64,000 bases of DNA from Anaerolineales bacterium (GCA_016744335.1 JADGEO010000008.1:15736-79735); one strand, 5' to 3'. Counted from the stretch's first letter, positions 15,061-54,743 are shown. Made by a program: numbers and translations. Notes: generated from the letters alone by a model not told the origin.

Positions 15061-16278
15061 ATGAGTGCCCATATTCTTGTTGTAGACGATAATGACATCA
15101 ATTTGAAGGTTGCAAGCAAAGTTTTAGAAAAAGAGGGGTATAAGGTATCTACTGCCTTAAATGGTAAAGATGCCTTGGTACAGGCAAATAAAACGCCACC
15201 CGATTTGGCAATTTTAGATGTAATGATGCCCGATATGGATGGCTATGAACTTTGTGAAAAAATACGAAATACGCCAAAAATAGCCCATATCCCTGTGATT
15301 ATGTTAACGGCATTATCAAGAGTAGATGATCGCCTGAAAGCCTTTGAAGCAGGCGCAGATGATTTTCTTACAAAGCCGTTTAACGTGGCAGAACTACGCG
15401 CGCGTGTAAAGGTTTTATTGAGGTACCTTGATACCCATGATGAAAACGAGACAGATTATCATGCTTATAAAATAGCCGTGTTCTCTTTGCGTGGCGGCAT
15501 AGGTGTTTCAACATTGGCGAGTAATCTTGCCGTAGGGTTAACACAACTTTGGGATGAAGAAAGCCTTCTCATTGACTTGGCTTTGGTAAATGGTCAGAGC
15601 GCATTAATGCTCGATTTATCTCTTCGTAATACTTTAGGTGATTTGGCTGAAATCCCAGTAGATGAAATAGACGTAGGACTACTTGAGCAAATTACACTTC
15701 AACATCCTGGTGGCACTCGTGTGCTTGCCGCACCACGAAAAGCCATAGAAGCTGATTTGGTTACAGAAGAAAAAGTTAAAAAAATAATAAGCCTACTCGA
15801 AGCGCACTATCCTTATTTTGTTTTTGACCTTCCGCATGATTTTAACGCAACCACTATTGCCGCCCTCGATTCTGCCGACAAAATTTTACTTATGCTTGCC
15901 CCCGAAATGGCATCTATTCGTTCTGCGGGGATGGCATTAAGTGTTTTTAATGATCTTGCATACCCCAAAGAAAAAATAGATCTTGTATTAAATTGGAACT
16001 TTCAAAGCCAGGGATTACCGCGAGACGAAATAGAAGCCGCACTTAATAAAAAAATATCTATAGTTATTCCTTATGCTTCGGGCACTATTGTCTCGGCTAT
16101 TACAAAGGGAAAGCCGCCTGTGCTAGATGAAGAAGAAACACCCCTTAAAGCACTATTAGAAGATTTAGCCTATTATTGGAGTGAAGCAGATCAAAAGAAA
16201 ATAAAACCCGATTCGCCAACAGAAAGTTGGATGCGTGTAGCTAAACGGATACGTAAACGTGTAAAAAAGAACGCGTAG
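15061..16278 (+). CDS. response-regulator receiver fused to a TadZ/CpaE-like (MinD/ParA-fold) domain with a degenerate Walker A
   Basis: The REC domain is canonical (VVDDND, LDVMMPDMDG, MLTAL, KPF). The ParA-like domain starts at IAVFSLRGGIGVSTLASNLA, where RGGIGVS replaces KGGxGKT. ATG 15061 has an AGGA SD, and the ORF-track start 15028 is less likely. Confidence 0.8.
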   Translation: MSAHILVVDDNDINLKVASKVLEKEGYKVSTALNGKDALVQANKTPPDLAILDVMMPDMDGYELCEKIRNTPKIAHIPVIMLTALSRVDDRLKAFEAGADDFLTKPFNVAELRARVKVLLRYLDTHDENETDYHAYKIAVFSLRGGIGVSTLASNLAVGLTQLWDEESLLIDLALVNGQSALMLDLSLRNTLGDLAEIPVDEIDVGLLEQITLQHPGGTRVLAAPRKAIEADLVTEEKVKKIISLLEAHYPYFVFDLPHDFNATTIAALDSADKILLMLAPEMASIRSAGMALSVFNDLAYPKEKIDLVLNWNFQSQGLPRDEIEAALNKKISIVIPYASGTIVSAITKGKPPVLDEEETPLKALLEDLAYYWSEADQKKIKPDSPTESWMRVAKRIRKRVKKNA

Positions 16279-16423
16279 GATGAAGAACCGAGTTCACTCT
16301 TATTTTGGGCTTGGGTGCTGAATCCCGAGCCTTTTCTTGGCGTGAGCGGAAAAAAGTTCACGCCAAGAAAAGGTTGCTTAAGGGCACTCAAGTAGAAGAT
16401 GCGCGCGGTGCGGTTCTTCATCC
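16278..16423 (+). repeat. structured intergenic element, copy C (CTTGAGTGC-core family)
   Basis: Three nested stems are visible. P1 is GGATGAAGAACCG (16278-16290) / CGGTTCTTCATCC (16411-16423). P2 is CTTGGGTGC (16310-16318) / GCACTCAAG (16384-16392). P3 is a perfect 15-bp stem, 16331-16345 / 16358-16372. Confidence 0.7.
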
Positions 16424-16475
16424 ATCTTAACTTTTTCTTGACTTAAGATTTTTCTAGTCTTATGGGGCTAAACGT

Positions 16476-16913
16476 TTAGTCATCTGGCGTGGCAGTGGCA
16501 GTGAACTTGATTTCGCCTATATTCGTGTTTTCGCCAGCTATAACATCTACGGCAAATTCGTATCCAGCTGTTTCGTTGGCGATAACCAACGAGCGTGTGC
16601 CTGCAGGGACGCTTTCAATAAGGAAACTTCCATCTTCATTGGTTGTAGTTTCTAGGTCTGTGCCGACAATAAAAACATAGCCATTGAAGGGCTGTTTTTT
16701 ATCATTTAGTGCTATACCACTTATGGCGCCTTTGCCTACAAGAATGTTGGCGGCATTGCTTTGGGCAAAAGAAACCCCAGCAAAGAGAATGACAACGCCT
16801 AATAAACCAAAGATAATAGTGTGTAGGCGTTTTTTCTTTGCGCTTGGGTTAGAAAGTTTATGGGGAATTCCTTCTTCAAATTCTTCGAGTGAGGGTGAGT
16901 TTTCAAATGACAT
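16476..16913 (-). CDS. membrane-anchored protein with a carboxypeptidase-regulatory-like (CarboxypepD_reg) beta-sandwich domain
   Basis: It has one TM segment (IIFGLLGVVILFAGVSF) followed by ISGIALNDKKQPFNGYVFIVGTDLETTTNEDGSFLIESVPAGT. The start lies 2 nt after the stop of the pilin-like gene. Confidence 0.6.
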   Translation of the reverse strand: MSFENSPSLEEFEEGIPHKLSNPSAKKKRLHTIIFGLLGVVILFAGVSFAQSNAANILVGKGAISGIALNDKKQPFNGYVFIVGTDLETTTNEDGSFLIESVPAGTRSLVIANETAGYEFAVDVIAGENTNIGEIKFTATATPDD

Positions 16914-16915
16914 TA

Positions 16916-17638
16916 TTATTCTCCTGTATTATTAACAAGGCTATCGATAGAGAACTCTCCAAAGCAGACTTCTGTGCTATCCCATGAGCGGAGTCCAACG
17001 CCGCCTTCATCGTAGGTGCTATCTTGCCCGACAAGAACTTTTTCACCATCAAGATAGACGGTAAAGGTATCGCCTTCTACATCTAACTTCATGTCGTGTG
17101 GTTCTCCGCTCCAGTCGTATCCTGGCATTTTTTTTACTGCAAAGGGAGGTAGTTCGCGCCCGTTAACCCACTTTCTCATGATAATTGAACCGCCGCCCCA
17201 GCCGGGGTCGTATTGAACGATATAGCCATTAGTGCGCCCATCCATTTCTGTTCCACGGAAAAATACGCCGTAGCCGTTCCCTTTATCTAATTGTGCATCG
17301 CTTAGGTTTACGGTGTAGTCTTTGTTGTTTGTCATATCTTGTGAGCAGTTATTGAGGTTTTTGGCACTACGAGATGTGCATAGCTTCCCGTCTTTGGTCT
17401 CCCATCCGCCGTATTGGGATGTCCAATTATCGTATGTTGAAAAATCATCTTGGCAGTAGACCCCAGCACAAGCATCTTCGTTGCCTATGCTTTTGGCTAT
17501 AGAGCAGTAGGTGTCGTAAAGGCTGAACCCCATTGCATTTAGTGCAAGCATTATCGACATTGCAACGAGTACGGCAATAAGCGCGTATTCTACAAGCCCT
17601 TGCCCTTTGGTATTATTTCTTAAGATATTCTTTTTCAT
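16916..17638 (-). CDS. Flp/Fap-type prepilin N-terminus fused to a DUF1080/LamG-like jelly-roll domain
   Basis: The N-terminus MKKNILRNNTKGQG|LVEYALIAVLVAMSIM matches the class-III (Flp) prepilin pattern G/xxxEY. The C-terminal ~190 aa carries DUF1080-like motifs: GGWETKDGKL, GYGVFFRG, GYIVQYD, DTFTVYLDGEKV, GGVGLRSW. Confidence 0.65.
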   Translation of the reverse strand: MKKNILRNNTKGQGLVEYALIAVLVAMSIMLALNAMGFSLYDTYCSIAKSIGNEDACAGVYCQDDFSTYDNWTSQYGGWETKDGKLCTSRSAKNLNNCSQDMTNNKDYTVNLSDAQLDKGNGYGVFFRGTEMDGRTNGYIVQYDPGWGGGSIIMRKWVNGRELPPFAVKKMPGYDWSGEPHDMKLDVEGDTFTVYLDGEKVLVGQDSTYDEGGVGLRSWDSTEVCFGEFSIDSLVNNTGE

Positions 17639-17664
17639 ATAAGTGCCTCCTTATAATATAGATG

Positions 17665-18879
17665 TTATTTTTTTCGTCTTGCCATAAATCGTTTATAAAC
17701 TTTTTTCCAGGTATCACTAGGAGAAATAGGTTTGTTTTTTTTATGTTTTCTTGAGCTAAGTAGAAAAGCAAAGTCTTCAAATAATGCTGTAAGTGTACTT
17801 TCGGGGTGTTCTAGGGTAAGAGGTTTTCCGTAATTAATTGCTCGAACAAATTTATCGGCAATATGAGGAATCGTGATAGTAATTGGTACCGAGAGGGCGT
17901 CTTCTATTTTCTTTACCGTTAAATCAGAGCGTGGAATAACGGCATTGAGGATGAGCTTTACTTTTTCTGGAGGATAGCCTAATTTCCTGTAGGTGTCTAG
18001 CGCGGCAGAAGCGGCTCGGATAGATGCCATTTCTGGAGCGACTAGTAATAAGATTATATCGGCTTCATCGAGTACGCTGAGTGTCATTGGGCTAAAGTCG
18101 TGAGGTAGGTCACAGATGATATAACTGAATTCCTTACGCAGTATGTTTAGGATGCCGTTTAGGGTTTCTTTTTCTAGCGGAGAGGCTTCAGAGGGTAGGG
18201 TTGGCGCAGGGATGAAATCAAGCCCGCTTTCGTGTTGACTGATGGTTGAATTGACCGCTTCTATATCTATGCTTTCTGCATCAAAGCGGGCTAGGTCTGT
18301 CCAGGTTCGTTTGAGGGGGGCATTTAGCATGAGGGCAACTTGTCCGGCTGTCATTGCCATATCGAGCAAGATGGTTGGTTTTTCCCAGAGTCGATATATG
18401 GATAAAGAAAGGTTAATTGCGAGGCTAGAGCATCCTGTGCCGCCGCGTAAGCTATGCACTGCAATTAGGCGTGCTTTTTCTTTTTCGTTAACGCGAGTAG
18501 ATTTTACACGTTTATTGCGCCGCAATAACACCTCTATGCGGGCTATCAATTCTTTAGGTTCAAATGGTTTTGATAGGTAATCGTCTGCGCCGGCTTCGAA
18601 GGCTTCTAGTTTTGCTTGCATATCAGTTTGTGCTGTGAGAATTAATATAGGGGTCTGCGCAAAACTGTTTTCTCTGCGAAGCGTGGTTGTAACTTCATAG
18701 CCATTCATATTGGGCATAATGACATCAGTAATGATTAAATCAGGTTTTAGCCTATGAGCTTTTTGGATTCCTTCACTTCCACTAGAAGCGGTTTCTATGC
18801 GATAGTTTTTTTCCTTAAGCGCATGAATAATCATATTATGATAAATTTCTTCATCGTCTATTACTAAAATTTTAATCAT
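17665..18879 (-). CDS. response-regulator receiver fused to a TadZ/CpaE-like domain with a degenerate Walker A (paralogue of 15061..16278)
   Basis: The REC domain is canonical (VIDDEE, TDVIMPNMNG, ILTAQ, KPF). The ParA-like domain starts at IAVHSLRGGTGCSSLAINLS. I placed the start at MIKILVIDD (ATG 18879, AAAGG SD) rather than the ORF-track start 18927. Confidence 0.8.
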   Translation of the reverse strand: MIKILVIDDEEIYHNMIIHALKEKNYRIETASSGSEGIQKAHRLKPDLIITDVIMPNMNGYEVTTTLRRENSFAQTPILILTAQTDMQAKLEAFEAGADDYLSKPFEPKELIARIEVLLRRNKRVKSTRVNEKEKARLIAVHSLRGGTGCSSLAINLSLSIYRLWEKPTILLDMAMTAGQVALMLNAPLKRTWTDLARFDAESIDIEAVNSTISQHESGLDFIPAPTLPSEASPLEKETLNGILNILRKEFSYIICDLPHDFSPMTLSVLDEADIILLLVAPEMASIRAASAALDTYRKLGYPPEKVKLILNAVIPRSDLTVKKIEDALSVPITITIPHIADKFVRAINYGKPLTLEHPESTLTALFEDFAFLLSSRKHKKNKPISPSDTWKKVYKRFMARRKK

Positions 18880-18958
18880 CGATTTACCTTTGTTTTGGAT
18901 AAGTATGAGATTTTCAGTGTTTGGCATATTGCTTTTAGAGCGTTATATGGTGTGGCAT

Positions 18959-21682
18959 TTAGAGATTTTCTGATAATTCTTCACTTACTTTTTTGGATTC
19001 TTCTTCAATGTCGTTTATTAAATTATCTACTTGGTTTAGATTGCCTTTTTTACCTTCTGCCTCTAACGTTGTACTTAACTCGGCTAGTTTATTGGCAGAG
19101 AATGTTAACGACATGCCTTTGAGGTTATGAGCAACACGATATATTTTTTCTGTATCTGAATGTGCAATGGCTTCTTTTATCTCTGCAATATGTTCAGGGA
19201 GTTTTTTTAGAAAATCTTCGCACATTTCGTTGAAGAATGCCACATCGTTGCCAAAGCGTGGAAGGGCGTCTTCTATATTTACCGCAGGGCTGTTTTTTGT
19301 GGGCACTCCAGTTTGGGGTTGCGCGGCGGGGGCGGGTTTTTTATTTACTAAAGGTGAGGTTGGCACATCTGTTTTCTGCATGTCTTTACTCCATCTTTGA
19401 ATAATAGCGAATAGGGAACGTTTGTCTATAGGCTTAGAGAGATAATCGTCCATACCTGCTTCAAGGCAACGTTCGCGATCTCCCTTCATGGCGTGGGCGG
19501 TCATAGCTATAATTGGGGTATGTTTTTTCCCTGCTTCCCAAGTGCGAATTTGGCGAGTGGCTTCAAAACCATCTAAGATGGGCATTTGCACATCCATTAG
19601 GATAAGGCTATATTCATTTTTCTTATTTTTTTGAACAGCCTCTTCTCCATTGCCGACAATGTCTATGATATGCCCTTCATTTTCAAGCAATGTTGAGGCA
19701 ACTTTTTGATTTATGGGGTTGTCTTCTGCCAATAAAATATATTGTGTTCTTGTTTTTTCTTCTTTTATAAGATGGCGGGTTACGAGCCTGCCATTGTTGG
19801 GTAAGTTATTTCTTTTTTCGTTAATAACCCTTACCAATGCTGTGAAAAGCATTTTTTGCTTTATGGGTTTTAGCAAGTATCCTGCACACCCTAAATCTTG
19901 AAGCCGTTTTGCATCACCACGTTGTCCCATTGATGTTAGCACCACGACACTTAAGTTTTTCTTTCGAGGGTCGCTGAAAATAGCTCGTGCCGTTTGCTCT
20001 CCATCCATTTCTGGCATTTGCATATCAAGTAAAACTAAATCGTACAAATCTCTTTCTTTTCTGGCAACCTGAAGAGCATCGAGTCCCTCTTGCCCACCTT
20101 CAACGGCATAAGCTCTTGCGCCAAAGCTTGAAACCATTTTCTTTAGGATGATTCGATTCGTCGCGTTATCGTCAATAATAAGGATTTTCAATCCCTGCAG
20201 GTCGGTTACTTTAGTTTTTGTTTCGTTCTTGTTTTGGGCTTGTTTACTGAACTCAAGCGTGAAGCTGAAAGTTGATCCTTTTCCATATTCGCTTTCTACG
20301 CTTAAATCTCCACCCATCGCTTCGATGAGGTGTTGTGAAATTGCTAAGCCCAAACCCGTGCCACCAAATTTGCGCGTTGTTGAGCCATCTGCTTGCGTGA
20401 AACGCTCAAAAACAGCATCTAAGCGATCAGATTTAATTCCAATGCCTGTGTCTTGCACAGAAAAGCGAATTTTCACATCATTTTCACTTTCTTCTATCGC
20501 TTTTATGTAGATAATCACTTCGCCTTTTTCGGTAAATTTGATGGCATTGCCCACAAGGTTAATCAAAACCTGTCTCAATCTGCCGGGGTCACCAAGTAGG
20601 TGTGTGGGTAATTGAGGCGGGATAAAAGAAATCAACTCTAAGCCTTTTTCTTCGGCGCGACTTGCAATAGTAGATGCGACCCCCTCAACCGTATTGCGTA
20701 AATTGAAGTCTATGATTTCAATGTCTAGTTTTTTTGCTTCAATTTTTGAGTAATCAAGAATGTCATTAAGTAGTGTTAATAAAGCCTCAGCACTCTGTTG
20801 CGCTATAGTGAGATATTCTTTTTGCTCATCACTTAAATCTGTATCTAGTGTGATATCAATCATGCCGATTACACCATTCATCGGGGTACGAATTTCGTGG
20901 CTCATATTGGCTAGAAATTCGCTTTTAGAACGATTTGCTTCCTCAGCAGATTGGCGGGCTTCAACTAAAGTAGATACGTCGTGGTATATAGCCAGAGAGC
21001 CAGCTCTCTTTTCTTCCACAAATACGGGAACACCAAATAACTCTACATTTATAATAGAGCCATCTTTTCGTCTTCGTTTTGCTATTTTATGGACGCGTTG
21101 TTGGGCTACTTCTTGTGTGAGTGTTTCAGCTTCTTTTTTTGTTTCATCGGTAGTAATTAGTTCATCTATATCTTTTCCTTTAACGCCAGCACAGGTGTAG
21201 CCATATAAGTCTTCAAAGGCGGCATTACAGTGTGTTATTTTTTGTTCGTTATCCAATAAGACAACGGCGGTGGGACTGTTTTCAATTAAGGCTTGAAAGT
21301 ATTTTTTTTGGCGTAAAATTTCTTTTTCAGCTTTTTCGCGTTCTCTATTTTCGTTTTTTAAATTCTGGTTACTTTTTTCTAAATCGGCTGTTCTCTCAGC
21401 GATTTTATCTTCTAAATAATGGTTTGTGTTCTCTAGTTTTTCTTCACGTCTTCCTATAGCTCTAAATAGGAGTGCCATAATAATTGGCGCAGTGTCTACA
21501 ACCCAAAGCACGGGGTTGGCAGATTGCAATGCCCAAAAATTAGTCGGGCGTATTGATGTTTTGCTTAAGGTCGCTTCAAGAGTTGTGCCTACTACAGGAA
21601 AAAACAACCCCAAAAATAACCCAAATAAGGTATATCGTTTTGTAGTGGGAATGCTTTCAATCCAAACCGTTATTTTATTCAT
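18959..21682 (-). CDS. hybrid sensor histidine kinase (TM - PAS - HisKA - HATPase - REC - REC - HPt)
   Basis: The H-box is SHEIRTPMNG and the G-boxes are DTGIGI and GGTGLGLAIS. Two receiver domains are present (IIDDNATN..LLDMQMPEMDG and LAEDNPINQ..LMDVQMPILDG). The C-terminal HPt has AHNLKGMS. Confidence 0.9.
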   Translation of the reverse strand: MNKITVWIESIPTTKRYTLFGLFLGLFFPVVGTTLEATLSKTSIRPTNFWALQSANPVLWVVDTAPIIMALLFRAIGRREEKLENTNHYLEDKIAERTADLEKSNQNLKNENREREKAEKEILRQKKYFQALIENSPTAVVLLDNEQKITHCNAAFEDLYGYTCAGVKGKDIDELITTDETKKEAETLTQEVAQQRVHKIAKRRRKDGSIINVELFGVPVFVEEKRAGSLAIYHDVSTLVEARQSAEEANRSKSEFLANMSHEIRTPMNGVIGMIDITLDTDLSDEQKEYLTIAQQSAEALLTLLNDILDYSKIEAKKLDIEIIDFNLRNTVEGVASTIASRAEEKGLELISFIPPQLPTHLLGDPGRLRQVLINLVGNAIKFTEKGEVIIYIKAIEESENDVKIRFSVQDTGIGIKSDRLDAVFERFTQADGSTTRKFGGTGLGLAISQHLIEAMGGDLSVESEYGKGSTFSFTLEFSKQAQNKNETKTKVTDLQGLKILIIDDNATNRIILKKMVSSFGARAYAVEGGQEGLDALQVARKERDLYDLVLLDMQMPEMDGEQTARAIFSDPRKKNLSVVVLTSMGQRGDAKRLQDLGCAGYLLKPIKQKMLFTALVRVINEKRNNLPNNGRLVTRHLIKEEKTRTQYILLAEDNPINQKVASTLLENEGHIIDIVGNGEEAVQKNKKNEYSLILMDVQMPILDGFEATRQIRTWEAGKKHTPIIAMTAHAMKGDRERCLEAGMDDYLSKPIDKRSLFAIIQRWSKDMQKTDVPTSPLVNKKPAPAAQPQTGVPTKNSPAVNIEDALPRFGNDVAFFNEMCEDFLKKLPEHIAEIKEAIAHSDTEKIYRVAHNLKGMSLTFSANKLAELSTTLEAEGKKGNLNQVDNLINDIEEESKKVSEELSENL

Positions 21683-21752
21683 AATAGCTCCACAGAAAAA
21701 AGGAGTTTCTTTTTATTAGACCTCTTGCAAAAGTCTGTTTTTTCTACGCTCC

Positions 21753-21805
21753 CTGCGCCGTCCTCGGCGCAGGCTTCTCTAAAACACGCCGCCGAGGACG
21801 GCGGC
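21753..21805 (-). terminator. pair of GC-rich, mutually complementary hairpins between the RR-HD-GYP gene and the hybrid kinase
   Basis: The first hairpin is CTGCGCCG-TCCT-CGGCGCAG (21753-21772) and the second is GCCGCCG-AGGA-CGGCGGC (21788-21805). On the minus strand the second is followed by GTGTTTT. The two hairpins share a 14-nt complementary core. Confidence 0.4.
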
Positions 21806-21832
21806 TAGAGCACTTATGCAAGATGTCTATTA

Positions 21833-22819
21833 TTAATTATTTTCAACAAATGCTAAAAAGTAGCTAAGAATATCTGGGTCAAAATGTTTCCCAGTTTCTT
21901 CTTTGATATAAGCCAGTGTTTTTTCTCTCGTCCAAGCCTTACGGTAAGGACGGTCTGAAAGTAACGCGTCCCAGACATCTGCAAGGGCGAATATTCGTGC
22001 CGATAGAGGGATTTCTGTGCCTTTTAGCCCACGTGGATAGCCTGAACCATCCCATTTTTCGTGATGGCAATAAGGAATATCGATGGACGGGCGCAAATAG
22101 GTTATATCTTTAAGCATATTATAGGCATGTTGGGGATGTTCTTGCATTAGATGCCATTCTTCGGGTGTTAGTTTTCCGTTTTTAAGTAAAATGGTATCTG
22201 ATATGCCTATTTTGCCTATATCGTGTAATAACGCTCCCCATTTTATATAGCGCAAATCTTTTCCTTGTAAACCCATTTTTTCTGCCAGTGCCACTGATGT
22301 CTTTGCTACGCGTTGATTATGCTCTTCAGTTTCTTGATCTCTTAAGGTAACAGCTTTAGACCAGCCTAAAATGGTGGCATCATAGGCATTGAGCAATTCG
22401 ACATGCGCTTGTTCAAGATTGGTGCGTTCATCATGTAATTTTTGGTAGCGGTTTAGGCGCATAATGCCAGCTATGCGAGCGCGTAATTCATGCCTATCGA
22501 AGGGTTTAGAGAGAAAATCATCTGCACCAGCTTCTAGCGCTAGTAGCATAGATTTATGATCGTTTAATGCAGTGAGAATAATGATGGGTATTTCAGCGAT
22601 ATCTATATTTTGGCGAATACGCTGGCAAACTTGGTAGCCAGTAATATCGGGCATCATTACGTCTAGCAAAATCAAATCGGGTTTGAGTGTTTCGGCTTTT
22701 TCTAGTGCCTGATGACCATTTTTGGCTGTTTTTAATTGATAGCCTTCTGATTCTAGAACCGATACAAGTGTTTGGCGACCTGCGTATTCATCATCTACAA
22801 TTAAAACTGTTTTTTGCAT
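21833..22819 (-). CDS. response regulator with HD-GYP output domain (RpfG family)
   Basis: The REC domain has IVDDEYA, LLDVMMPDITG and KPF. The HD-GYP domain has LLHDIGKIG...YCHHEKWDGSGYPRGL. Confidence 0.9.
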   Translation of the reverse strand: MQKTVLIVDDEYAGRQTLVSVLESEGYQLKTAKNGHQALEKAETLKPDLILLDVMMPDITGYQVCQRIRQNIDIAEIPIIILTALNDHKSMLLALEAGADDFLSKPFDRHELRARIAGIMRLNRYQKLHDERTNLEQAHVELLNAYDATILGWSKAVTLRDQETEEHNQRVAKTSVALAEKMGLQGKDLRYIKWGALLHDIGKIGISDTILLKNGKLTPEEWHLMQEHPQHAYNMLKDITYLRPSIDIPYCHHEKWDGSGYPRGLKGTEIPLSARIFALADVWDALLSDRPYRKAWTREKTLAYIKEETGKHFDPDILSYFLAFVENN

Positions 22820-22836
22820 TGAGTGCTCCTTGTTTA

Positions 22837-22857
22837 AGACTTAAGACTTTAGACTAA
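22837..22857 (-). repeat. heptad-periodic GTCT x3 array directly upstream of the RR-HD-GYP Shine-Dalgarno
   Basis: On the plus strand, AGAC occurs at 22837, 22844 and 22851. The 11-mer AGACTTAAGAC is identical to 2650-2660. In the gene sense it reads GTCTAAAGTCTTAAGTCTTAAACAAGGAG...ATG. Confidence 0.75.
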
Positions 22858-22909
22858 AATCAACAGCTTAGGGCTGATGACCGATATCTGATATCTTAAG
22901 GCTAAATAA

Positions 22910-23554
22910 TCAATCAACTAATTTATATTTTACCGCTATACGAACTAGCCCAGCCAAATTGCGGGCGTCTAATTTTCTCATTATTCTTGAGCGGTGTTTT
23001 TCTACTGTTTTTTCGCTAATAAATAATTCTTCTGCAATTTCGGCACTGGTGTGCTCTTCGGCTATGAGTTGTAAAACTTCTTTTTCACGTGGTGAAAGAT
23101 GTGAAAGGGGGGTGCTATCCCACCCATCTGTAGGGGGATTTGAAACATTTTCGAGCATAATTTCTGAAATTTCTTGGCTTAAATAGCTTTTATTTTGGGC
23201 AAGCGCATAAACGGCTTTAATGAGTTCATCGCTAACTGATGATTTGAGCAAGTAGCCCTTAATGCCATATTTAAATGCTTGATGCACCAAGCTAGGGTCT
23301 GAATACATAGAGAGCAAAAGGATATTGGTCGTAAGCTTTAAGTTATGAATCTTCTCGGCGGCTTGAATACCATTTAGGCGGGGCATCATAATATCCATAA
23401 TGAGTACATCGGGCTGACGTTTTCTAAGTAAGTTTATTGCTTCTTGCCCATTATTGGCTTCACCAAGCACATAAATATCTTTTGTATTTTCAAGTAAAGC
23501 GCGAATACCCGCTCTTACCAACGTGTGGTCTTCGGCTATTATCACATTAATCAT
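22910..23554 (-). CDS. NarL/FixJ-family response regulator (REC + LuxR-type HTH)
   Basis: The REC domain has IIAEDH and IMDIMMPRLNG. The C-terminal HTH is LSPREKEVLQLIAEEHTSAEIAEELFISEKTVEKHRSRIMRKL. Confidence 0.9.
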   Translation of the reverse strand: MINVIIAEDHTLVRAGIRALLENTKDIYVLGEANNGQEAINLLRKRQPDVLIMDIMMPRLNGIQAAEKIHNLKLTTNILLLSMYSDPSLVHQAFKYGIKGYLLKSSVSDELIKAVYALAQNKSYLSQEISEIMLENVSNPPTDGWDSTPLSHLSPREKEVLQLIAEEHTSAEIAEELFISEKTVEKHRSRIMRKLDARNLAGLVRIAVKYKLVD

Positions 23555-24657: not shown

Positions 24658-24819
24658 GGGGATGAGATGCACGCGGGACGCTCGCGTTTTTGGCTTGGTG
24701 CTTGCGCCCAAGCTGGGGATGTGGGACGTACGTTTCTACGCTATATATGTTTACGTCGAGATCCTGTTGACGATGAGCACTCAAGTAGATGTTACGCGCG
24801 TTGCGGTTTTTTATCATCC
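24658..24819 (+). repeat. structured intergenic element, copy D (CTTGAGTGC-core family)
   Basis: It starts GGATGA and ends TCATCC, like copy C. The 3' part, GCACTCAAGTAGATGTTACGCGCGTTGCGGTTTTTTATCATCC, aligns closely with copy C (16384-16423). Confidence 0.6.
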
Positions 24820-31603: not shown

Positions 31604-31680
31604 GCTTAAATCCTTTTATCTGAAAAAAATGTTTGTGTATTGCTACGTTATTATCACTAATAATCAAGGTCATTTTATCC

Positions 31681-33975: not shown

Positions 33976-34005
33976 TAGCTTTTCCTTCTGACTGTTTCAG
34001 TTATT

Positions 34006-35535: not shown

Positions 35536-35594
35536 GGTGCTTTCTCCGTATAAGTTATAAAAGTAAAAACCGTTCATCCTCGCCTCTTTTTTGT

Positions 35595-42223: not shown

Positions 42224-42225
42224 AG

Positions 42226-43344: not shown

Positions 43345-43480
43345 TTTTTTCTCCTTATGTAACTTGCTAGCCATCTTCTCTTTTCAATGTGACACGTGCT
43401 TTTGCCTTCGCTCGATTTGGCCACATAACGATGACATAATCTTCTCGACGTTTTGTATACTGAAAGCAGCTTTGCTCAAA

Positions 43481-44230
43481 TTACTTCTCCAACTCCCACC
43501 CATTGTCCACAGGTAAATCAAGATAAAAACGCGTGCCTTTCCCTTCTTCGCTCTCAAAGGTCAGTTTGCCGTGATGATCTTGAACAATGCCAAGACTGAT
43601 TGAGAGTCCCAGCCCTGTACCCGTAGTGCGATCTTTGGTGGTGTAAAAAGGATCGAAAATTCGTTCTCTAATTTCAACTGGGATGCCCGCTCCGTGATCT
43701 TCAACGGTTGTGCGTAGCCATCTTCGACCTTCTTTTTCAAATAGTTTCACACTTATATTGATGATCTTGTCTGGGTTATATTCAGGATAACGCTCATTGA
43801 GGGTATCTCGGGCGTTGGTTAGCAAGTTCATCAGCACCTGTTGAATTTGCTGGCTGCGACATTTGATCTTAGGGAGGTCATTGGGGACATTTACCTCTAA
43901 TGTGATTTGATCCCGCTTGATAATTGTACGGATCAGAGTGAGTGTGCCGTTCATGATGTCAACCATTTGAGCTGGGCTGTGGGATTGCTTTTCCTGGCGG
44001 GCAAAGGTCAGCAAGTTGTGCACGATCTCTGCTACACGTTTGGTTTCATGAATTATTTCAGAGGAAAACTCGCTTAATTGCTTTTGGCTTGGCTCCAGAC
44101 GTTCACCAATCAACTGAGCATAGTTCATGATGCCCATGATAGGGTTATTGATTTCATGAGCTACACCACCAGCCAGTGTGCCAATTGATTCGAGTTTCTG
44201 TCCATGGCGCAGATGCACTTCCATTTGTTG
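43481..44230 (-). repeat. shared transmitter cassette, copy 5
   Basis: It is the closest partner of copy 4 and of the decayed copy at 47985-48472. Confidence 0.9.
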
Positions 44231-45853: not shown

Positions 45854-45964
45854 ATCGTTTACGCATAAGCCTAAAATAAAATCTATTATTTTCTTCAGGC
45901 CAAGCCTCTTTAGTGGATAAATAAGCCTGTAATAGTTATCGTGCAAATCAATCTGCTATTACTC

Positions 45965-47929
45965 CTACGGGACAATAAAATACTGGCACGGGTTAGTCGG
46001 AGCGGGGCTGGGGTATGTCCAGGCATATGGAAGGAGTTTGGGTACGTTATGCATACGGTTAGATACAATACCATAACCATTACCGGGGACTGCAATGCCA
46101 ATGGTATGGAATTCTTCGGCTGCGATTTCTAATATATTCATCATCAATTCATCTTGGACAGATGTATCAGCAGTGGCTTTAATTTGGTCATAGAGTTCCA
46201 TTTGTTGTTGTGCCCACAAAGGAGGGACTTCACTCTCGAAATACTCGTTTGGTGAATACCACCAGACCCATTTCATACCATACCCTGCCTCTGCATTACC
46301 AGGAAAATACATCCCTGGCGTCAGAATAACATCAAGTCCGCCAGTACCTGACCAAACTAAGGCATCATGGGTGGCAAAATTGCGGCTTTCATCTAATTCC
46401 TGCCAGCCTTTTTCTTCAATTATGGTGCGGATGCCAACTGCCTCCCAATCCTCTTTGATCAGTTTAAGTGCCTCAGGCCAGTCTTTGTTGAATACATCTG
46501 CGACTTCAATCGTGATAGTTAAACTATTCCCATCTAGGTCTTTACGGAAGCCATCCTGTTCTTTTTCTGTGAGACCAGCTTGGTCTAGATATTCTCGTGC
46601 TAAATCAGGATCGTAGTCTGTGTATTGGGTTGCAAGTTTTTCGTTATAAAAGTGGGATTCGGGACGAGGGGCTGCCTGATAAGGGGCTAAGGCGTTAGTG
46701 AAGACTTGGTCGATAATTCGTTGACGATTGATAGCCAATGATAGGCCAACTCGAAAATCTTTATCTAAGAAAATCTTCCGTTTTACAGGATCGGGGTGAG
46801 TGAGGTTAAATTGGATAACCATCTCATTCATATCGCTAGGTTTGGTGGCCACAAACCAGTAATCAGTTAAAGATTTGGTGTACAAATCTTGATTCTCTGG
46901 TTTATTGATATGTCGTATTTGCATATCGATCTTGCCAGCGGTGGCCAGTTTAACAAGTTCATCGGCCGATTCGGCTAGGGTGAAATGTAGTTCATCGATA
47001 TAAGGAAGTTGCTGAAAATTCGTATCTATCTTCCAGTAATATGGGTTTCGGTGGGCATTTAGGAAACCGCTATCATTGGGTTCATAGGCGGTGGAAAAAA
47101 CCCATGCGTGCAGGGTTGGGATTTCAGGGTTCCACCAGCATCGCTTTGAGTGATTAAAGCGATGTTGCCAATTATCGAATCCGAGTTCTTTGGCAATTAT
47201 ATCGGCTTCAGATGAGTTTTCAGGCAAAAACTGTTCCAAATAGTGTCGTGGATATGAAGTGATGTCGGCACCTCTAGGGAATGCAAGGTATTGAAGAAAT
47301 AACCCATAAGGTTGACTGAAGCGAATGATAAAACTGGTGTCTGAAAGGATTTCAACCTCCCATGATTCGCCACCTGGTGCCAACCAATCTGGCGGGCCAT
47401 TAGGGAAAAAATCTTGATTTTGAGTCCATTCATAATAGAAAAGAATATCAGAGCTTGTAAAAGGATGTCCATCAGACCAACGCATACCTTCTCTAAGAGT
47501 AAAGGTGAAAGCAGTTGAATCTTTGTTGACTTCAACTGATTGGGCAATATTAGGGATTGTTTTTGTCCAGTTGGCATCCCACTGAACCAAATTTTCATAG
47601 GTAAAGGTGCGCACGAAAAGTCCTGTATCCTTGGAATTCAATGCACCCATGCGCCAAGTGCCGCCGTAAACACCAACACGCTCTACTGGCTGGATGAGCA
47701 TAGGATTAGTGGGTAAACGCTCTTCTACCGAAGGAAGTTCGTCATTGATAACCATCGCAGCTAATTGAGGAGCTTCATTATAGATAGATTTGGAGTCAAC
47801 ATCAGGTTCTTCTGTAAGAGTTGCCTTCTGCACAGTTTCAATCTCATCCAACTCCTGTGTTGACCTACATCCTGCCATGTCTATTGACAGCAATATCCCC
47901 AATATGATAACAACAATTGTTTTTTTCAT
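45965..47929 (-). CDS. orphan extracellular solute-binding lipoprotein (ABC family-5, peptide/oligosaccharide type)
   Basis: The lipoprotein signal is MKKTIVVIILGILLSIDMAG|C. The ~650-aa size and sequence resemble family-5 SBPs (RWSDGHPFTSSDILFYY, HFTLAESADE). No permease or ATPase gene lies nearby. Confidence 0.75.
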   Translation of the reverse strand: MKKTIVVIILGILLSIDMAGCRSTQELDEIETVQKATLTEEPDVDSKSIYNEAPQLAAMVINDELPSVEERLPTNPMLIQPVERVGVYGGTWRMGALNSKDTGLFVRTFTYENLVQWDANWTKTIPNIAQSVEVNKDSTAFTFTLREGMRWSDGHPFTSSDILFYYEWTQNQDFFPNGPPDWLAPGGESWEVEILSDTSFIIRFSQPYGLFLQYLAFPRGADITSYPRHYLEQFLPENSSEADIIAKELGFDNWQHRFNHSKRCWWNPEIPTLHAWVFSTAYEPNDSGFLNAHRNPYYWKIDTNFQQLPYIDELHFTLAESADELVKLATAGKIDMQIRHINKPENQDLYTKSLTDYWFVATKPSDMNEMVIQFNLTHPDPVKRKIFLDKDFRVGLSLAINRQRIIDQVFTNALAPYQAAPRPESHFYNEKLATQYTDYDPDLAREYLDQAGLTEKEQDGFRKDLDGNSLTITIEVADVFNKDWPEALKLIKEDWEAVGIRTIIEEKGWQELDESRNFATHDALVWSGTGGLDVILTPGMYFPGNAEAGYGMKWVWWYSPNEYFESEVPPLWAQQQMELYDQIKATADTSVQDELMMNILEIAAEEFHTIGIAVPGNGYGIVSNRMHNVPKLLPYAWTYPSPAPTNPCQYFIVP

Positions 47930-47984
47930 GGTGCTCTCTTTTAGTATACGTGGGATAAACCGAATATATATGCCTCTTCTTTTC

Positions 47985-48472
47985 TCATTCATCTTTCATC
48001 TCTACGCACCAATTATTGTCCACCGGTAAGGCAAGATAAAAACGCGTGCCTTTCCCTTCTTCGCTCTTAAAGGCCAATTTACCGTGGTGATCTTGAACGA
48101 TACCGAGACTGATAGAGAGACCTAATCCCGTTCTTGTAGCACGTTCTTTGGTGGTGTAAAAAGGAACAAAAATACTTTCTCTGATTCTAAAGGGAATATC
48201 TGCCTTAAAATCGTTCGTAGCTATCTTCGACTTTCTTTCTCGAAGAGATTTACGCTCACGTCATAATTTTGTCTGGGTCATACTCTGGGTTGAGGGTATC
48301 ACGGGCAAAGGTCAGTAAGTTGTGCACGATCTCTGCTACGCGTTTGGTTTCATAAATTATTGCAGAGGAAAACTTGTTCAATTGCTTCTGGCTTAGGTCT
48401 AGACGCTCATCAATCACCTGAGCATAGTTTATGATGCCCATGATAGGGTTATTGATTTCGTGAGCTACGCCC
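47985..48472 (-). pseudogene. decayed, 5'-truncated sixth copy of the shared kinase transmitter cassette
   Basis: It aligns with the 3' end of kinase E (43481-44190) but has several indels and an internal deletion of roughly 190 nt. Similarity stops abruptly at ~48471, inside the H-box (AHEINNP). Only a 61-aa ORF fragment survives. Confidence 0.85.
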
Positions 48473-48699
48473 CTCTTACATCTTTAACAATATATTCGCT
48501 GTCAATGACAATTACATTTTTGTTAATACTGTCTGAAAATAGCATTGGTTTTCTTTGAGCGTATCCTTTGTTTGTACTTGCTCTATTTTATCTGCTATCT
48601 CTTAAACATCTATCTTTACTATAGCATATTTAGCTTGTAAGAAATATATTGATTAGATGACAAAAGCTTTCCTTTTTCTTGGATAAAAAAACCGCTTCG

Positions 48700-48850
48700 C
48701 ACTTGCCCTCAACTTGGGTGCCGATATTTGATGTTCTCTTGGCGTAAACAGGGGCAAGGCGTTCACATCAAGATTCTGTTTGGGGTTTGCACCCCAGCCT
48801 AAAACACGTATGCCAAGCCTGCCGAAGTCCGCACGATGTAGGTTTCCATT
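48700..48850 (+). repeat. structured intergenic element, copy E (CTTGAGTGC-core family)
   Basis: P2 is CTTGGGTGC (48713-48721) / GCACCCCAG (48789-48797). P3 is TCTTGGCGT (48737-48745) / ACATCAAGA (48765-48773). The core AGGCGTTCACATCAAGATTCTGTTTGGGGTTTGCAC is nearly identical to copy F. Confidence 0.65.
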
Positions 48851-48900
48851 CTAGAGCAGTTGCGCCATCGAGTTTGAAGTGTACCTTTATTTCTTTTCTT

Positions 48901-53078: not shown

Positions 53079-53096
53079 ATAGACCTCAGTAACTTA

Positions 53097-54203
53097 TTAA
53101 TTGGGTAACATGGCTACTACATGGCAACCGTGTTTGCTATCTATAATTTTCACGTATCCTTTATTCATTTCAAAAAATGCACGTGCGATATTTAATCCAA
53201 CACCAAGCCCTTCGTGTTCTCTTGTATCGCCTTGGCTAATCTGATAAAAGCGGTCAAAAACTTTTTCTCTTAAATCGGCGGGGACGCCAATCCCGTTATC
53301 TTCTACACTAATGCCGATGCCATTTTCAAGAGATTTTATGATTAAATTCACTTTTCCTTTATTCGGACTGAACTTGAAGGCATTATCAACGAGATGCAAT
53401 ATGACATGGGAAAATTCTCGGCGGGGAACAAAAATCTCATCTTCTGTAAGTAGCTTGGCGTTAAAGTCTAAATCTTTTTCTTTATATCTTTCTAAACGTT
53501 TTTCTAATAAATTAATAAGGTGCGTTTTCACAGCCAGCGGTTGTCTTATGTCGTTCAAGTTTCCTTGGTCTATATTAGAAAGCAAAATTAAATCAGTAGA
53601 AAGAGATTCCAAGCGATTGGCATTAGATAATGCCATGCGAATAAATTGTATTTTATCTTCTGGGTTTATAACTTTATTGTTGACTGCCAGCTCTAAGGGC
53701 ATGAGGATATTGGTAAGTGGGGTACGCAATTCATGATGAAAGTTTTGAAGAATTTCCTGTTTTAGTTTATTTAACTCTTCTTCAGCTTGCTTTTTCATTT
53801 CTTCGCGTCCGCGGGTTTGTTCAAAGTGAACTCGTTGTAAAATTGCATCAATGCGGGCAAGAAGTTCCTCTGTTTCAAATGGTTTTACAATATAATCATC
53901 TGCGCCCTCTTCGAAGCCTCGCAAGCGGTCTTCTTTCTCTGTTCGTGCGGTTAGAAAAATAAAAGGAATCGTGGCGAACTTAGCATCTTCGCGTATTATT
54001 TTACGCATTTCAAAGCCATCTAAGAAGGGCATCATCACATCTGACAGCACCAAATCAGGGGCATTCTTTTTCACCTCTTCTATCCCTTGGCGTCCATCTT
54101 TTGCCGTAATTACGCGATATCCATGGCGTTCTATTTTTGCCTTTAATCCCAATAAAATTGAAGGATCATCGTCAATAACCAATATGGTTTGTTTAGCTTT
54201 CAT
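53097..54203 (-). CDS. REC-fused histidine kinase (REC - HisKA - HATPase)
   Basis: The REC domain has VIDDDPS, LSDVMMPFLDG, LTART and KPF. The H-box is HHELRTPLT and the HATPase motifs are VDNAFKFSP and DNGIGVP..GLGVGLNIA. Confidence 0.9.
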   Translation of the reverse strand: MKAKQTILVIDDDPSILLGLKAKIERHGYRVITAKDGRQGIEEVKKNAPDLVLSDVMMPFLDGFEMRKIIREDAKFATIPFIFLTARTEKEDRLRGFEEGADDYIVKPFETEELLARIDAILQRVHFEQTRGREEMKKQAEEELNKLKQEILQNFHHELRTPLTNILMPLELAVNNKVINPEDKIQFIRMALSNANRLESLSTDLILLSNIDQGNLNDIRQPLAVKTHLINLLEKRLERYKEKDLDFNAKLLTEDEIFVPRREFSHVILHLVDNAFKFSPNKGKVNLIIKSLENGIGISVEDNGIGVPADLREKVFDRFYQISQGDTREHEGLGVGLNIARAFFEMNKGYVKIIDSKHGCHVVAMLPN

Positions 54204-54561
54204 GGGGCAATTCTCCTAAGGATTGAGTTACCCCATAAGATTTATCGACTAAAGAAGATTTGTTGTTTATAAACATAATTTGGATATTTGCCAAGGCAAT
54301 TAAATCTCCCGAATTAAGCACACAGCGAATAATTTTTTTCCCGTTGACATAAGTTCCCCCAGTCGATTGCATGTCATAAAGCACGTATTGTTTTCCTTCA
54401 AGGATTATTTCAGCATGTTCACGTGATAAAAGAGCCTCGTGAAAAACAAGATCGTTCTCTAAATTACGCCCCAACGTAGTTTTCCTTTTATTTAATGGGA
54501 CTACCTGTTTGTTGACCACAAGTGATGCCTGGTGCGAATATAGGTAGGATGAATTGTTCAT
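54193..54561 (-). CDS. FHA-domain protein
   Basis: This 122-aa ORF has the FHA core TTLGRNLENDLVFHEALLSREHAEIILEGKQYVLYDMQSTGGTYVNGKKI. A GAGGA SD precedes the start, and the gene overlaps the REC-kinase start by 11 nt. Confidence 0.85.
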   Translation of the reverse strand: MNNSSYLYSHQASLVVNKQVVPLNKRKTTLGRNLENDLVFHEALLSREHAEIILEGKQYVLYDMQSTGGTYVNGKKIIRCVLNSGDLIALANIQIMFINNKSSLVDKSYGVTQSLGELPHES

Positions 54562-54606
54562 GTTTTCGTCCTCTAATAAAGTTTAATAAGGAGTAATATA
54601 AGGGAA

Positions 54607-54743
54607 AGTTGACGCTCTTAATTTGAACTTGAGTGCAGATAGTGAGCATTTTCTTAGTGTAAGCTGTGTGAGGCGTTCACACTAAGATTCTGTTGGGGTT
54701 TTTGCACGCCTGCTAAAAACACGTACGGTACGGAGTTTCATCC
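54607..54743 (+). repeat. structured intergenic element, copy F (CTTGAGTGC-core family)
   Basis: It has TTGAACTTGAGTGC at 54623-54636. P3 is a perfect stem, TCTTAGTGT (54652-54660) / ACACTAAGA (54679-54687). It ends in TCATCC (54738-54743), like copies C and D. Confidence 0.65.

What the first reader, a model, noticed from the sequence alone, without database searches (positions are those of the whole stretch)
16278..54743. Family of ~140-160 nt structured intergenic elements (CTTGAGTGC core), with compensatory stem changes and pairwise bracketing of gene modules
Copies C (16278-16423), D (24658-24819), E (~48700-48850) and F (~54607-54743) are collinear on the plus strand and occur only between genes. 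C folds into three nested stems. The central stem P3 is conserved in structure but not in sequence: C has TCTTGGCGTGA/TCACGCCAAGA and F has TCTTAGTGT/ACACTAAGA, with two double compensatory changes. E has TCTTGGCGT/ACATCAAGA, with 8 of 9 positions pairing. P2 uses the 9-mer CTTG(G/A)GTGC and its complement. The 10-mer GCACTCAAGT occurs on the plus strand in the ruvB promoter and in copies C and D. It occurs on the minus strand in F. That is four occurrences, where well under one is expected for a given 10-mer in 64 kb. C, D and F share the end sequence TCATCC, and C and D share the start sequence GGATGA. The most similar copies are neighbours. C and D enclose the pilin/TadZ/HPt-kinase/HD-GYP/NarL block (16476-24618). 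E and F enclose exactly the FHA-to-KAP operon. The elements could be a structured sRNA or insulator, a MITE/REP-like element, or recombination sites delimiting mobile gene cassettes.
Basis: seen in the sequence. Interest (0 to 1): 0.65.

Follow-up and report, generated by a model that had tools for sequence, protein, structure and literature searches.

The report
Old palindromic intergenic repeat family
The flagged sequences are real copies of a roughly 145-170-base imperfect-palindrome repeat that sits between genes in a small group of uncultured Anaerolineae bacteria; it most resembles the decayed MITE/ERIC/REP-type repeats known from other bacteria, so it is a new family of an ordinary kind.

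Summary
The four copies C, D, E and F exist where stated and are homologous. A model built without D scores D at E 2e-4. It scores a positional orthologue of D in another genome (L138) at E 1.5e-10.

Each copy has two inverted arms of about 50 nt (GGATGAA...CTTGRGTGC) around a central hairpin, P3. Only C is still a near-perfect hairpin. D, E and F have each decayed in different parts.

The compensatory changes in P3 are real, but there are few of them. They beat shuffled controls only in the six-copy alignment. For the whole three-stem structure they do not beat the controls.

No strand bias points to an RNA from one strand. There is no Rfam match, no target-site duplication and no transposase in the window.

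Copies sit at orthologous sites in relatives with 72-90% protein identity, and they diverge star-like from a consensus. The family was seen only in a narrow Anaerolineae clade.

The arms resemble the conserved leaderless ruvB/upp promoter region.

The "bracketing" of gene modules is only a description of position. KAP-FGE homologues (66% identical) in other genomes lack the element.

Best reading: an old, mostly immobile MITE/ERIC-like palindromic repeat family. Interest is low to moderate.

The parts
16278..16423 (+). Copy C, the most intact member. P1 is 16278-16290 / 16411-16423, P2 is 16309-16319 / 16383-16393, and P3 is 16328-16347 / 16356-16375. It lies between the convergent TadZ/CpaE-like gene and the 145-aa gene, and its first base overlaps the TadZ stop codon.
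   Evidence: Fold -78.2 kcal/mol, z = -9.1. As DNA, z = -6.4. R1 scores 98 bits on the + strand and 74 bits on the - strand. The orthologue in L124 is 81% identical over the left arm plus P3.
16307..16340 (+). Local hairpin P2' (GGGCTTGGG...CCCGAGCC) followed by TTTTCTT, inside the left arm of C. It looks like an intrinsic terminator for the TadZ-like gene.
   Evidence: Terminator-like site reported. The hairpin is kept in L124 with a G-C to A-T double change.
24658..24819 (+). Copy D. The right arm is well kept (82% identical to the right arm of C). The left arm is of the GGCTTGG...CCAAGC type, and P3 has decayed. It lies 40 nt upstream of the RR-HisKA_3 kinase gene and 24 nt after the stop of the 1424-aa hybrid kinase gene.
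   Evidence: 23.6 bits on the - strand, E 2e-4, not in the training set. Positional orthologue at L138:9410-9553.
48681..48852 (+). Copy E. It has the left arm, P3 (7 Watson-Crick pairs, 1 G.U and 1 mismatch out of 9) and an E/F-type right part. It lies 49 nt after the stop of the KAP-NTPase/FGE gene and next to a histidine-kinase gene fragment.
   Evidence: R1 scores 81.6 bits. It is 74% identical to F over 100 nt. It does not fold as a whole, z = +1.2.
54598..54743 (+). Copy F. The left terminus has decayed. P3 carries two double changes relative to C. It lies 37 nt upstream of the FHA gene start and downstream of the terminator-like site of the 253-aa gene (54810-54826).
   Evidence: R1 scores 80.9 bits.
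5403..5480 (+). Probable degenerate half copy: an arm GGGATAAAGTGCC...CGCGCG...GGGCTTGCTTGCC plus the left strand of P3, TCTAATCGTAAAC. It lies between the convergent ftsZ and a 343-aa gene.
   Evidence: The orthologue L124:1140-1228 scores R1 16.2 bits, E 0.03, and arm HMM E 0.007. The window copy itself is weak (E 0.55). The two are 77% identical.
10629..10680 (-). Arm-like sequence that forms the leaderless ruvB promoter: CGCGCGTGTA-TTGAAC-TTGAGTGCCTCTGTCGGG-TATAAT-7 nt-ATG.
   Evidence: Promoter scan finds TTGAAC-18-TATAAT, 10 of 12. The arm HMM, built only from element arms, gives E 1.4e-3 here, 1.4e-4 in L124, 2e-3 in L126 and 0.017 in L128. Sequences.
14237..14290 (-). Second, decaying copy of the ruvB promoter arm, on the upp side of a 3.5-kb insertion. 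It is 81% identical to 10635-10676, and its outer end abuts the upp -10 box.
   Evidence: L124 has a single copy and no insertion.

Best explanation
C, D, E and F belong to an old family of non-coding imperfect-palindrome repeats of MITE/ERIC/REPIN type. The family is specific to a small clade of uncultured Anaerolineae (Chloroflexota).

The ancestral unit was a near-perfect palindrome of about 145 bp. It had two inverted arms of about 50 nt (GGATGAARAACCG ... CTTGRGTGC) around a central 14-20-bp hairpin (TTTTCTTGGCGTGA / TCACGCCAAGAAAA).

Inferred history: the unit spread into intergenic gaps in the ancestor of the clade through an unidentified transposase or copying process. It then stopped moving. 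The copies have since been inherited vertically at fixed sites and are decaying independently.

Inferred present effect: any effect is a by-product of the hairpins when they are transcribed within neighbouring mRNAs. C, between convergent genes, could end or stabilise transcripts. D and F would be intercistronic or 5'-UTR hairpins. One solitary arm serves as the core of the ruvB/upp promoter.

Shown here: family membership, the palindromic architecture, orthologous persistence, star-like divergence, and the absence of an RNA-strand signal. Inferred: past mobility and any present role.
For: **A real family with sharp ends**
- The core covariance model R1 finds C, E and F, and it finds untrained members: D (E 2e-4) and L138e (E 1.5e-10).
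- Further copies occur in other genomes in different contexts: L124, L125 and L127.
- Similarity starts and stops at GGATGAA / TTCATCC.

**Palindrome**
- R1 also hits the reverse strand of every copy: C 74 bits, L127e 64, L125e 42, F 40.
- The C-derived structure is 68% paired across 7 copies, against about 40% for slid controls.

**Independent decay**
- C keeps P1, P2 and P3.
- L138e keeps P1 but has lost P3.
- D has lost its left arm and P3.
- L124 lacks the right arm.
- E and F do not fold as wholes.

**Star-like divergence**
- The positional orthologue of D (L138e) is closer to C (0.73) than to D (0.65). All pairs fall between 0.55 and 0.73, against a shuffle baseline of 0.50.

**Neutral-like rate at short range**
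- C versus L124 is 81% identical. Fourfold-degenerate sites of the flanking genes are 75-80% identical.

**No RNA-specific signal**
- P3 has 9 G.U against 7 A.C. The arms are biased in opposite directions in different copies. There is no Rfam hit.

**Narrow distribution**
- A strict core pattern gave one hit in all JGI metagenome contigs.
- There were no hits in viral contigs or plasmids.
- There were none in loci of relatives with 66-74% protein identity.

**Lineage context**
- An unrelated 148-nt palindromic insert abuts the element in L124, so elements of this kind do insert in this lineage.
Against: - No target-site duplication is seen at any copy (direct reading).
- No two copies are near-identical, so there is no sign of recent transposition.
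- No transposase or parent IS with these ends lies in the window or the fetched loci.
- Genome-wide copy number could not be measured, because only about 190 kb of related DNA was available.
- Copies persist at orthologous sites across relatives in which fourfold sites are near saturation (0.35-0.50). They still share 0.61-0.73 identity. That could mean host-level constraint rather than junk.
- P3 shows four double changes in six copies (1/500 shuffles).
- The P2' hairpin shows a double change between the orthologues C and L124.
- The arm resembles a conserved, functional promoter. The family might therefore derive from host regulatory DNA rather than from a transposon.
Confidence: 0.6

Rival explanations
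1. A host-maintained cis-acting RNA or DNA hairpin module. The elements would be kept by selection because, once transcribed within neighbouring mRNAs, their hairpins end, stabilise or process transcripts between operons. Examples would be a bidirectional terminator at C and intercistronic hairpins at D, E and F. On this view they are a regulatory feature, not selfish relics.
For: - Copies persist at orthologous sites: C in the window and L124; D in the window and L138; the ftsZ-downstream copy in the window and L124.
- Cross-species identity of 0.61-0.73 is above the shuffle baseline of 0.50, although fourfold sites are at 0.35-0.50.
- P3 has double changes.
- P2' plus a T-run inside C looks like a terminator, and it is kept in L124 with a compensatory change.
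- All copies lie at gene ends or just upstream of start codons.
Against: - Different copies have lost different stems.
- L124 has lost a whole arm.
- There is no terminator-like site on the gene strand in D, E or F.
- P3 is flanked 5' by T and 3' by A on both strands, which is the reverse of an intrinsic terminator.
- Whole-structure covariation is not above shuffles.
- C versus L124 evolves at about the synonymous rate.
- Other intergenic DNA is equally conserved: 79% over 419 nt upstream of ruvB between the window and L125.
Confidence: 0.2
2. Promoter or transcription-factor-site paralogues. The arms would be copies of a host regulatory sequence, the ruvB/upp bidirectional promoter core. The palindromes would be back-to-back duplications of it that drive or regulate the adjacent signalling operons.
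For: - The arm HMM, trained only on element arms, hits the ruvB promoters of four genomes (E 1.4e-4 to 0.017), against a best of 0.04 in 891 kb of unrelated DNA.
- Order and spacing match: GGATG..CCGC..CGCGCG..CTTGAGTGCC, then 10 nt, then the -10 position.
- -10-like hexamers abut the outer termini that face genes: D-left CATAAT, F-left TATATT, L125e-right TATTAC and upp TATAAT (direct reading).
Against: - In the elements the inner -10 position holds CATTTT or CCTTTT and faces the P3 hairpin, not a gene.
- The -10-like box at the left end of D is not conserved in the orthologue L138.
- No sigma-70-like promoter is called in or next to C, D or F.
- C and the ftsZ-downstream copy lie between convergent genes, where no promoter is needed.
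- The variable loop length of P3 argues against a double-stranded operator.
- The promoter hits come from orthologous promoters, so they are not independent.
Confidence: 0.12
3. Recombination sites that delimit mobile gene modules. Pairs of elements would be the ends of cassettes that are gained or lost as units.
For: - The 3.5-kb three-gene block 10677-14243 is flanked by about 50-bp direct repeats of the arm-like ruvB promoter sequence (81% identical).
- The block is present in the window and in L125 but absent from the closer relative L124, which has a single copy of the repeat.
- E and F flank one four-gene operon.
Against: - There is no recombinase in the window among the proteins examined.
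- No integron-type core sites are present.
- C-D and E-F are palindromes, not direct repeats.
- KAP-FGE homologues elsewhere lack the element and the operon context.
- The C-to-HD-GYP part of the C-D block is syntenic in L124, and the D-to-TadZ2 part is syntenic in L138, with the element kept at the orthologous site. This looks like vertical inheritance.
- Any two consecutive intergenic repeats 'bracket' something.
Confidence: 0.06

Closest known systems
ERIC / IRU elements of Enterobacteria (about 127-bp imperfect palindromes; from my own knowledge of Hulton 1991, Sharples & Lloyd 1990, Wilson & Sharp 2006)
   Same: Similar size. Imperfect palindrome that folds into one long hairpin. Strictly intergenic, often inside transcription units. 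Low to moderate copy number with diverged copies. Copies persist at orthologous sites in related species. No associated transposase is known.
   Different: No sequence relationship was tested or is expected. The phylum differs (Chloroflexota). Here the arms resemble a host promoter. Copy number here is unknown.
Correia elements (CREE/NEMIS) of Neisseria
   Same: Palindromic repeats of 100-160 bp with inverted-repeat ends. They lie next to genes, and their ends can supply promoter parts. As RNA they form hairpins that affect transcript fate.
   Different: Correia elements make a TA target duplication, are highly similar to one another and number in the hundreds. Here there is no duplication, copies are only 55-73% alike, and the count is unknown.
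REP / REPIN elements mobilised by RAYT (Y1) transposases (PMC3116915, PMC3337134, PMC3733652; found, abstracts seen only)
   Same: Intergenic. Hairpin made of two inverted units. No target duplication. Long-term vertical persistence. RAYT-like Y1 genes exist in relatives next to ruvB.
   Different: The REPs that flank those RAYT-like genes are unrelated in sequence (AAGGACTTTAGTCCTT). There is no consistent GTAG/CGTC tag at the arm ends. The arms are about 50 nt rather than 20-40-nt palindromes. No RAYT lies in the window.
Integron attC sites
   Same: Imperfect palindromes of 60-140 nt that fold as single strands and separate gene units in one orientation.
   Different: No integrase. No RYYYAAC / GTTRRRY core sites. 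The enclosed units are 6-24 kb of multi-gene operons. The elements are kept at orthologous sites.

Membership tests
MITE (non-autonomous transposon) | Short (<~300 bp), non-coding, with terminal inverted repeats | tested here: met
   Length is 144-172 nt. Ends are GGATGAAGAACCG / CGGTTCTTCATCC in C. Comparable ends occur in L125e, L127e and L138e. No ORF was examined or is claimed.
MITE (non-autonomous transposon) | Target-site duplication flanking each copy | tested here: not met
   The flanks of C, D, E, F, L124, L125e, L127e and L138e share no direct repeat (reading).
MITE (non-autonomous transposon) | Many dispersed copies, including presence/absence at orthologous sites | tested here: inconclusive
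   There are 4 full copies and 1 half copy in 64 kb, plus copies in 4 other contigs. All three sites that could be compared are occupied in the relatives. The sites are empty only in relatives of 69% identity or less. The whole genome was not available.
MITE (non-autonomous transposon) | A parent IS or transposase with the same ends | not testable with these tools
   None lies in the window or the fetched loci.
REP / REPIN-RAYT system | Units are 20-40-nt palindromes with a conserved 5' GTAG/CGTC tag | tested here: not met
   The four bases ending at the terminal G of each arm are GTAG, ATGG, ATAG, GTGG, TTTG and TTAG. This is not a conserved tag. The arms are about 50 nt and are not themselves palindromes.
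REP / REPIN-RAYT system | A cognate RAYT gene flanked by the same repeat | tested here: not met
   The RAYT-like gene in L126 (Pfam Y1_Tnp, 26 bits) is flanked by unrelated REPs. A gene with a weak Y1_Tnp match also lies next to ruvB in L128; its flanks were not examined. There is none in the window. The rest of the genome is unseen.
Any curated RNA family (Rfam 15) | Score at or above the family gathering threshold | tested here: not met
   There are 0 hits in the window. In E-value mode on C, the only matches are far-sub-threshold ones: miRNA-precursor hairpins, plus Phe_leader and DnaX at E 4.7-9.2.
Structured RNA (new family) | Covariation above background and a strand-specific G.U excess | tested here: not met
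   For the full structure, double changes are not above shuffles: 478 of 500 shuffles reach the observed value. P3 gives 1/500 on six copies but 146/500 on seven. G.U:A.C is 9:7 in P3 and the direction is mixed in the arms. The sample is small.
Integron attC | Core sites R''/R' (RYYYAAC ... GTTRRRY) and a nearby IntI integrase | tested here: not met
   The ends are GGATGAA / TTCATCC. No integrase domain appears among the annotated neighbours.
Intrinsic terminator | GC-rich hairpin directly followed by a U-run on the transcribed strand | tested here: inconclusive
   Such a site is found only inside the left arm of C, plus a small one in D on the + strand. None is found on the gene strand of D, E or F.

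The most novel reading that the evidence does not exclude
The palindromes are not transposon relics. On this reading they are a host-built module derived from the ruvB/upp bidirectional promoter core. Two promoter-like arms face a central hairpin, and selection keeps the module at operon boundaries of the signalling-gene region. There it would act as a combined transcript-end and re-initiation (insulator) element. Because arm copies are repeated, it would also act as a break-point for gain and loss of gene blocks, as seen at the 3.5-kb ruvB-upp insertion.
Probability: 0.1. Interest if true: 0.6.

Novelty: new member of a known kind. Interest (0 to 1): 0.3.

Why it matters
- I know of no description of palindromic intergenic repeats for Anaerolineae, and two full-text searches found none. 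A defined family gives annotators a model for masking or labelling these gaps and a marker for this clade.
- The resemblance of the arms to a conserved leaderless promoter is a small but concrete case of exchange between repeat DNA and promoters, in one direction or the other.
- The block flanked by arm repeats shows how such repeats can mark structural variation.
- None of this changes current understanding of bacterial repeats.

Tried and rejected
1. **Genome-collection scan, wasted.** The scan with CTTGRGTGCN{10,22}TCTTRGYGT was too permissive.
2. **Known RNA families.** There were no credible hits: none at the gathering score and only far-sub-threshold matches on C.
3. **Plasmid and viral collections.** No match.
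4. **One-strand RNA.** I counted G.U against A.C. C and D favour the + strand, L125e and L127e favour the other strand, and P3 is balanced. Rejected.
5. **Target-site duplications.** None found.
6. **LexA or sigma-54 sites in the arm.** GAAC-N4-GTGC is present at the ruvB promoter, but the GAAC is not conserved in the elements, and there is no TGGCAC-N5-TTGC. Rejected on reading.
7. **Outward promoter at the arm terminus.** -10-like boxes appear at D-left, F-left, L125e-right and upp. The box at D is not conserved in the orthologue L138, and the scan calls no promoter. Kept only as a minor rival.
8. **RAYT link.** The flanking REPs of the RAYT-like gene in L126 are unrelated to this family.
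9. **Recent transfer of the 3.5-kb block between lineages.** The block genes show ordinary divergence, with fourfold-site identity of 0.39-0.64. Rejected.
10. **The match at 225-262.** It lies inside murB coding sequence and is chance.

Full report
**Source and setting**

The window is positions 13632-77631 of a 77.7-kb metagenome scaffold: ENA ERZ28566656, BORC21-1_SAMN14087008_METAG-scaffold_16. Homologues of its TadZ/CpaE-like response-regulator protein are named Anaerolineae or Chloroflexota in public records. G+C content is 42.6%.

The region from 16 to 55 kb holds almost only signalling genes on the minus strand. These are hybrid histidine kinases, response regulators, HD-GYP, FHA and KAP-NTPase/FGE proteins.

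**The observation**

The exact 10-mer count is 4, against 0.13 expected, and 0 of 100 shuffles reach 4.

C is a near-perfect 146-nt hairpin. As RNA it folds at -78.2 kcal/mol with z = -9.1. As DNA z = -6.4. D, E and F do not fold better than shuffles as wholes.

The left arm plus the central hairpin P3 aligns at 73% column identity across C, E, F and three copies from other contigs.

I built a covariance model (R1) of that core. On the window with filters off it recovers C, E and F. It also recovers D, which was not used in training: 23.6 bits, E 2e-4, through its right arm. Nothing else scores above 14 bits.

R1 also matches the reverse strand of each copy. The unit is therefore an imperfect palindrome whose right arm is the reverse complement of the left arm. 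For that reason, 'all copies on the plus strand' carries little information.

**More copies elsewhere**

- L124 is the orthologous locus in a relative with 90% TadZ identity. It has the left arm and P3 at the same place, directly after the TadZ gene, but it lacks the right arm. An unrelated 148-nt palindromic insert abuts the element there.
- L125 is from GCA_029935795.1 (77% TadZ identity). It has a full copy next to the 145-aa gene.
- L138 is a second contig of the same MAG. It has a copy at the site orthologous to D, between the big hybrid kinase and the RR-HisKA_3 gene. R1 scores it 44.7 bits, E 1.5e-10, independent of training.
- A strict core pattern found only one hit in all JGI metagenome contigs, L127. 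That copy lies in an unrelated context and is again a long hairpin, z = -5.6.
- Loci from relatives with 66-74% protein identity contain no copy.
- The window has a weak extra half copy after ftsZ (5403-5480). Its orthologue in L124 is clearer.

**Structure and covariation**

On the six intact copies, P3 (18 pairs) is 86% paired. Four pairs show double changes, and only 1 of 500 shuffles reaches this. Between the orthologues C and L124 there is a U-A to C-G change in P3.

When D and L138e, whose P3 has decayed, are added, the signal disappears (146/500).

The full three-stem structure of C was projected on seven copies. It is 68% paired, against about 40% for slid controls, so the palindrome is a property of the family. 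Double changes, however, are not above shuffles (478/500).

G.U against A.C mismatches are 9:7 in P3. In the arms, C (7:1) and D (10:3) lean to the plus strand, while L125e (3:7) and L127e (5:8) lean the other way. Nothing therefore singles out an RNA from one strand.

Rfam gives no credible match.

Different copies have lost different parts:
- L138e keeps a 22-bp outer stem but not P3.
- D keeps the right arm only.
- L124 lost an arm.

**Rates**

Between the window and L124, fourfold-degenerate sites of the flanking genes are 75-80% identical. The element is 81% identical, which is close to neutral.

Between the window and the 77% relative, fourfold sites are at 0.35-0.50. Element pairs share 0.61-0.73 of alignment columns, against a shuffle baseline of 0.50 +/- 0.02.

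The positional orthologue of D is closer to C (0.73) than to D (0.65). This is a star-like pattern of decay from one consensus.

The excess over baseline may reflect constraint. Other intergenic DNA in the same comparison is just as conserved, though: 79% over 419 nt upstream of ruvB.

**The promoter link**

The 10-mer next to ruvB is part of a conserved leaderless promoter: TTGAAC, 18 nt, TATAAT, 7 nt, ATG.

Lined up on CTTGNNTGC, this promoter shares order and spacing with the element arms in the window, L124, L125, L126 and L128. The shared order is GGATG..CCGC..CGCGCG..CTTGAGTGCC, then 10 nt, then the -10 position.

A profile built only from eight element arms finds these promoters at E 1.4e-4 to 0.017. 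The best hit in 891 kb of unrelated DNA is E 0.04. This support is moderate, and the promoters are orthologous to each other.

In the elements the -10 position holds CATTTT or CCTTTT and faces P3, so the arms are not obviously promoters themselves.

Either a solitary arm was recruited long ago as the ruvB/upp promoter core, or the family grew out of that promoter. I cannot tell which.

**Bracketing and cassettes**

C and D, and E and F, do flank the stated gene sets, but any consecutive intergenic repeats do that.
- The gene order from C to the HD-GYP gene is conserved in L124. From D to the second TadZ-like gene it is conserved in L138. In both cases the element is in place, which points to vertical inheritance.
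- The closest KAP-FGE homologues (66% identity) lie in other contexts without elements.
- The one real presence/absence case is elsewhere. The three-gene block 10677-14243 splits the ruvB-upp promoter region and is flanked by about 50-bp direct repeats of it (81% identical). L125 has the same arrangement. L124 has a single copy and no block. The block genes show ordinary divergence, so this is not a recent transfer. Loss by recombination between the repeats in L124 is the simplest account (inference).

**Verdict**

The family is real. It is best read as an old palindromic intergenic repeat that is now largely immobile. It is similar in kind to ERIC, Correia or REPIN elements, but it fails the specific tests for MITEs (no target duplication) and for REPINs (no tag, no cognate RAYT).

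A host role as a transcript-end or intercistronic hairpin is possible, chiefly for C. C carries a terminator-like hairpin plus T-run in its left arm, conserved with a compensatory change in L124.

Reading the elements as an sRNA gene or as cassette recombination sites is not supported.

The main limitation is that only about 190 kb of related DNA could be examined. Copy number and genome-wide distribution therefore remain unknown.

Noticed in passing
window 10677-14243, with repeats at 10628-10676 and 14237-14285: A three-gene block (131-aa protein; 755-aa Peptidase_S24/DUF5305/HD protein; 161-aa HemolysinCabind protein) splits the ruvB-upp divergent promoter. It is flanked by about 50-bp direct repeats of that promoter, 81% identical, and the upp-side copy includes a decayed ruvB start codon. 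L125 has the same arrangement. The closer relative L124 has neither the block nor the duplication.
   Followed up: partly
L124:11221-11368: An unrelated 148-nt palindromic insert with ends TTTCGGATAAG / CTTATCCGAAA (DNA fold z = -3.6). It lies exactly between the TadZ stop codon and the left end of the element. It is absent from the window (0 matches with up to 3 mismatches).
   Followed up: partly
L126:12421-13023 and L128:5379-5984: A 200-aa IS200-like Y1 transposase (RAYT-like; Pfam Y1_Tnp 26 bits for the L126 protein) lies directly downstream of ruvB in two more distant relatives. In L126 it is flanked on both sides by REP-like palindromes (AAGGACTTTAGTCCTT, AACCGCTAAAGCGGTT) unrelated to the family studied here. 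The window has no gene at this position.
   Followed up: partly
window 29195-48471: An array of five paralogous hybrid histidine-kinase genes, interrupted by other genes, whose 3' parts are 72-91% identical in DNA. A sixth, truncated C-terminal fragment lies at 47989-48471 (61-90% identical to parts of the others) in the 908-bp non-coding gap that also holds copy E.
   Followed up: no
window 5480-5535: Three tandem copies of about 13 nt (CCAAACGTGCACT / GCAAAACGTGCACT), directly after the degenerate half element downstream of ftsZ.
   Followed up: no
window 10604-11005 versus L125:7860-8270: The AT-rich non-coding stretch upstream of ruvB, about 350 nt within the 419-nt aligned span, is 79% identical between genomes whose fourfold-degenerate sites are only 39-64% identical. 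This suggests a conserved non-coding function, such as a leader, an sRNA or regulatory sites.
   Followed up: no
window 55722-55763: A 42-nt near-perfect palindrome (90% self-complementary) between tpiA and the 253-aa gene. A similar sequence lies at L125:2881-2935 downstream of TadZ. This may be another small repeat or terminator family.
   Followed up: no
window 10629-10643 and the same position in L124, L125, L126 and L128: The ruvB start codon lies 7 nt after a perfect TATAAT box in all five genomes, which implies a leaderless ruvB mRNA.
   Followed up: partly
window 2641-2731: A 40-nt inverted repeat pair (70% complementary, 11 nt apart), rich in AAGAC/GTCTT units, in the gap between the genes at 1653-2648 and 2739-3977.
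   Followed up: no
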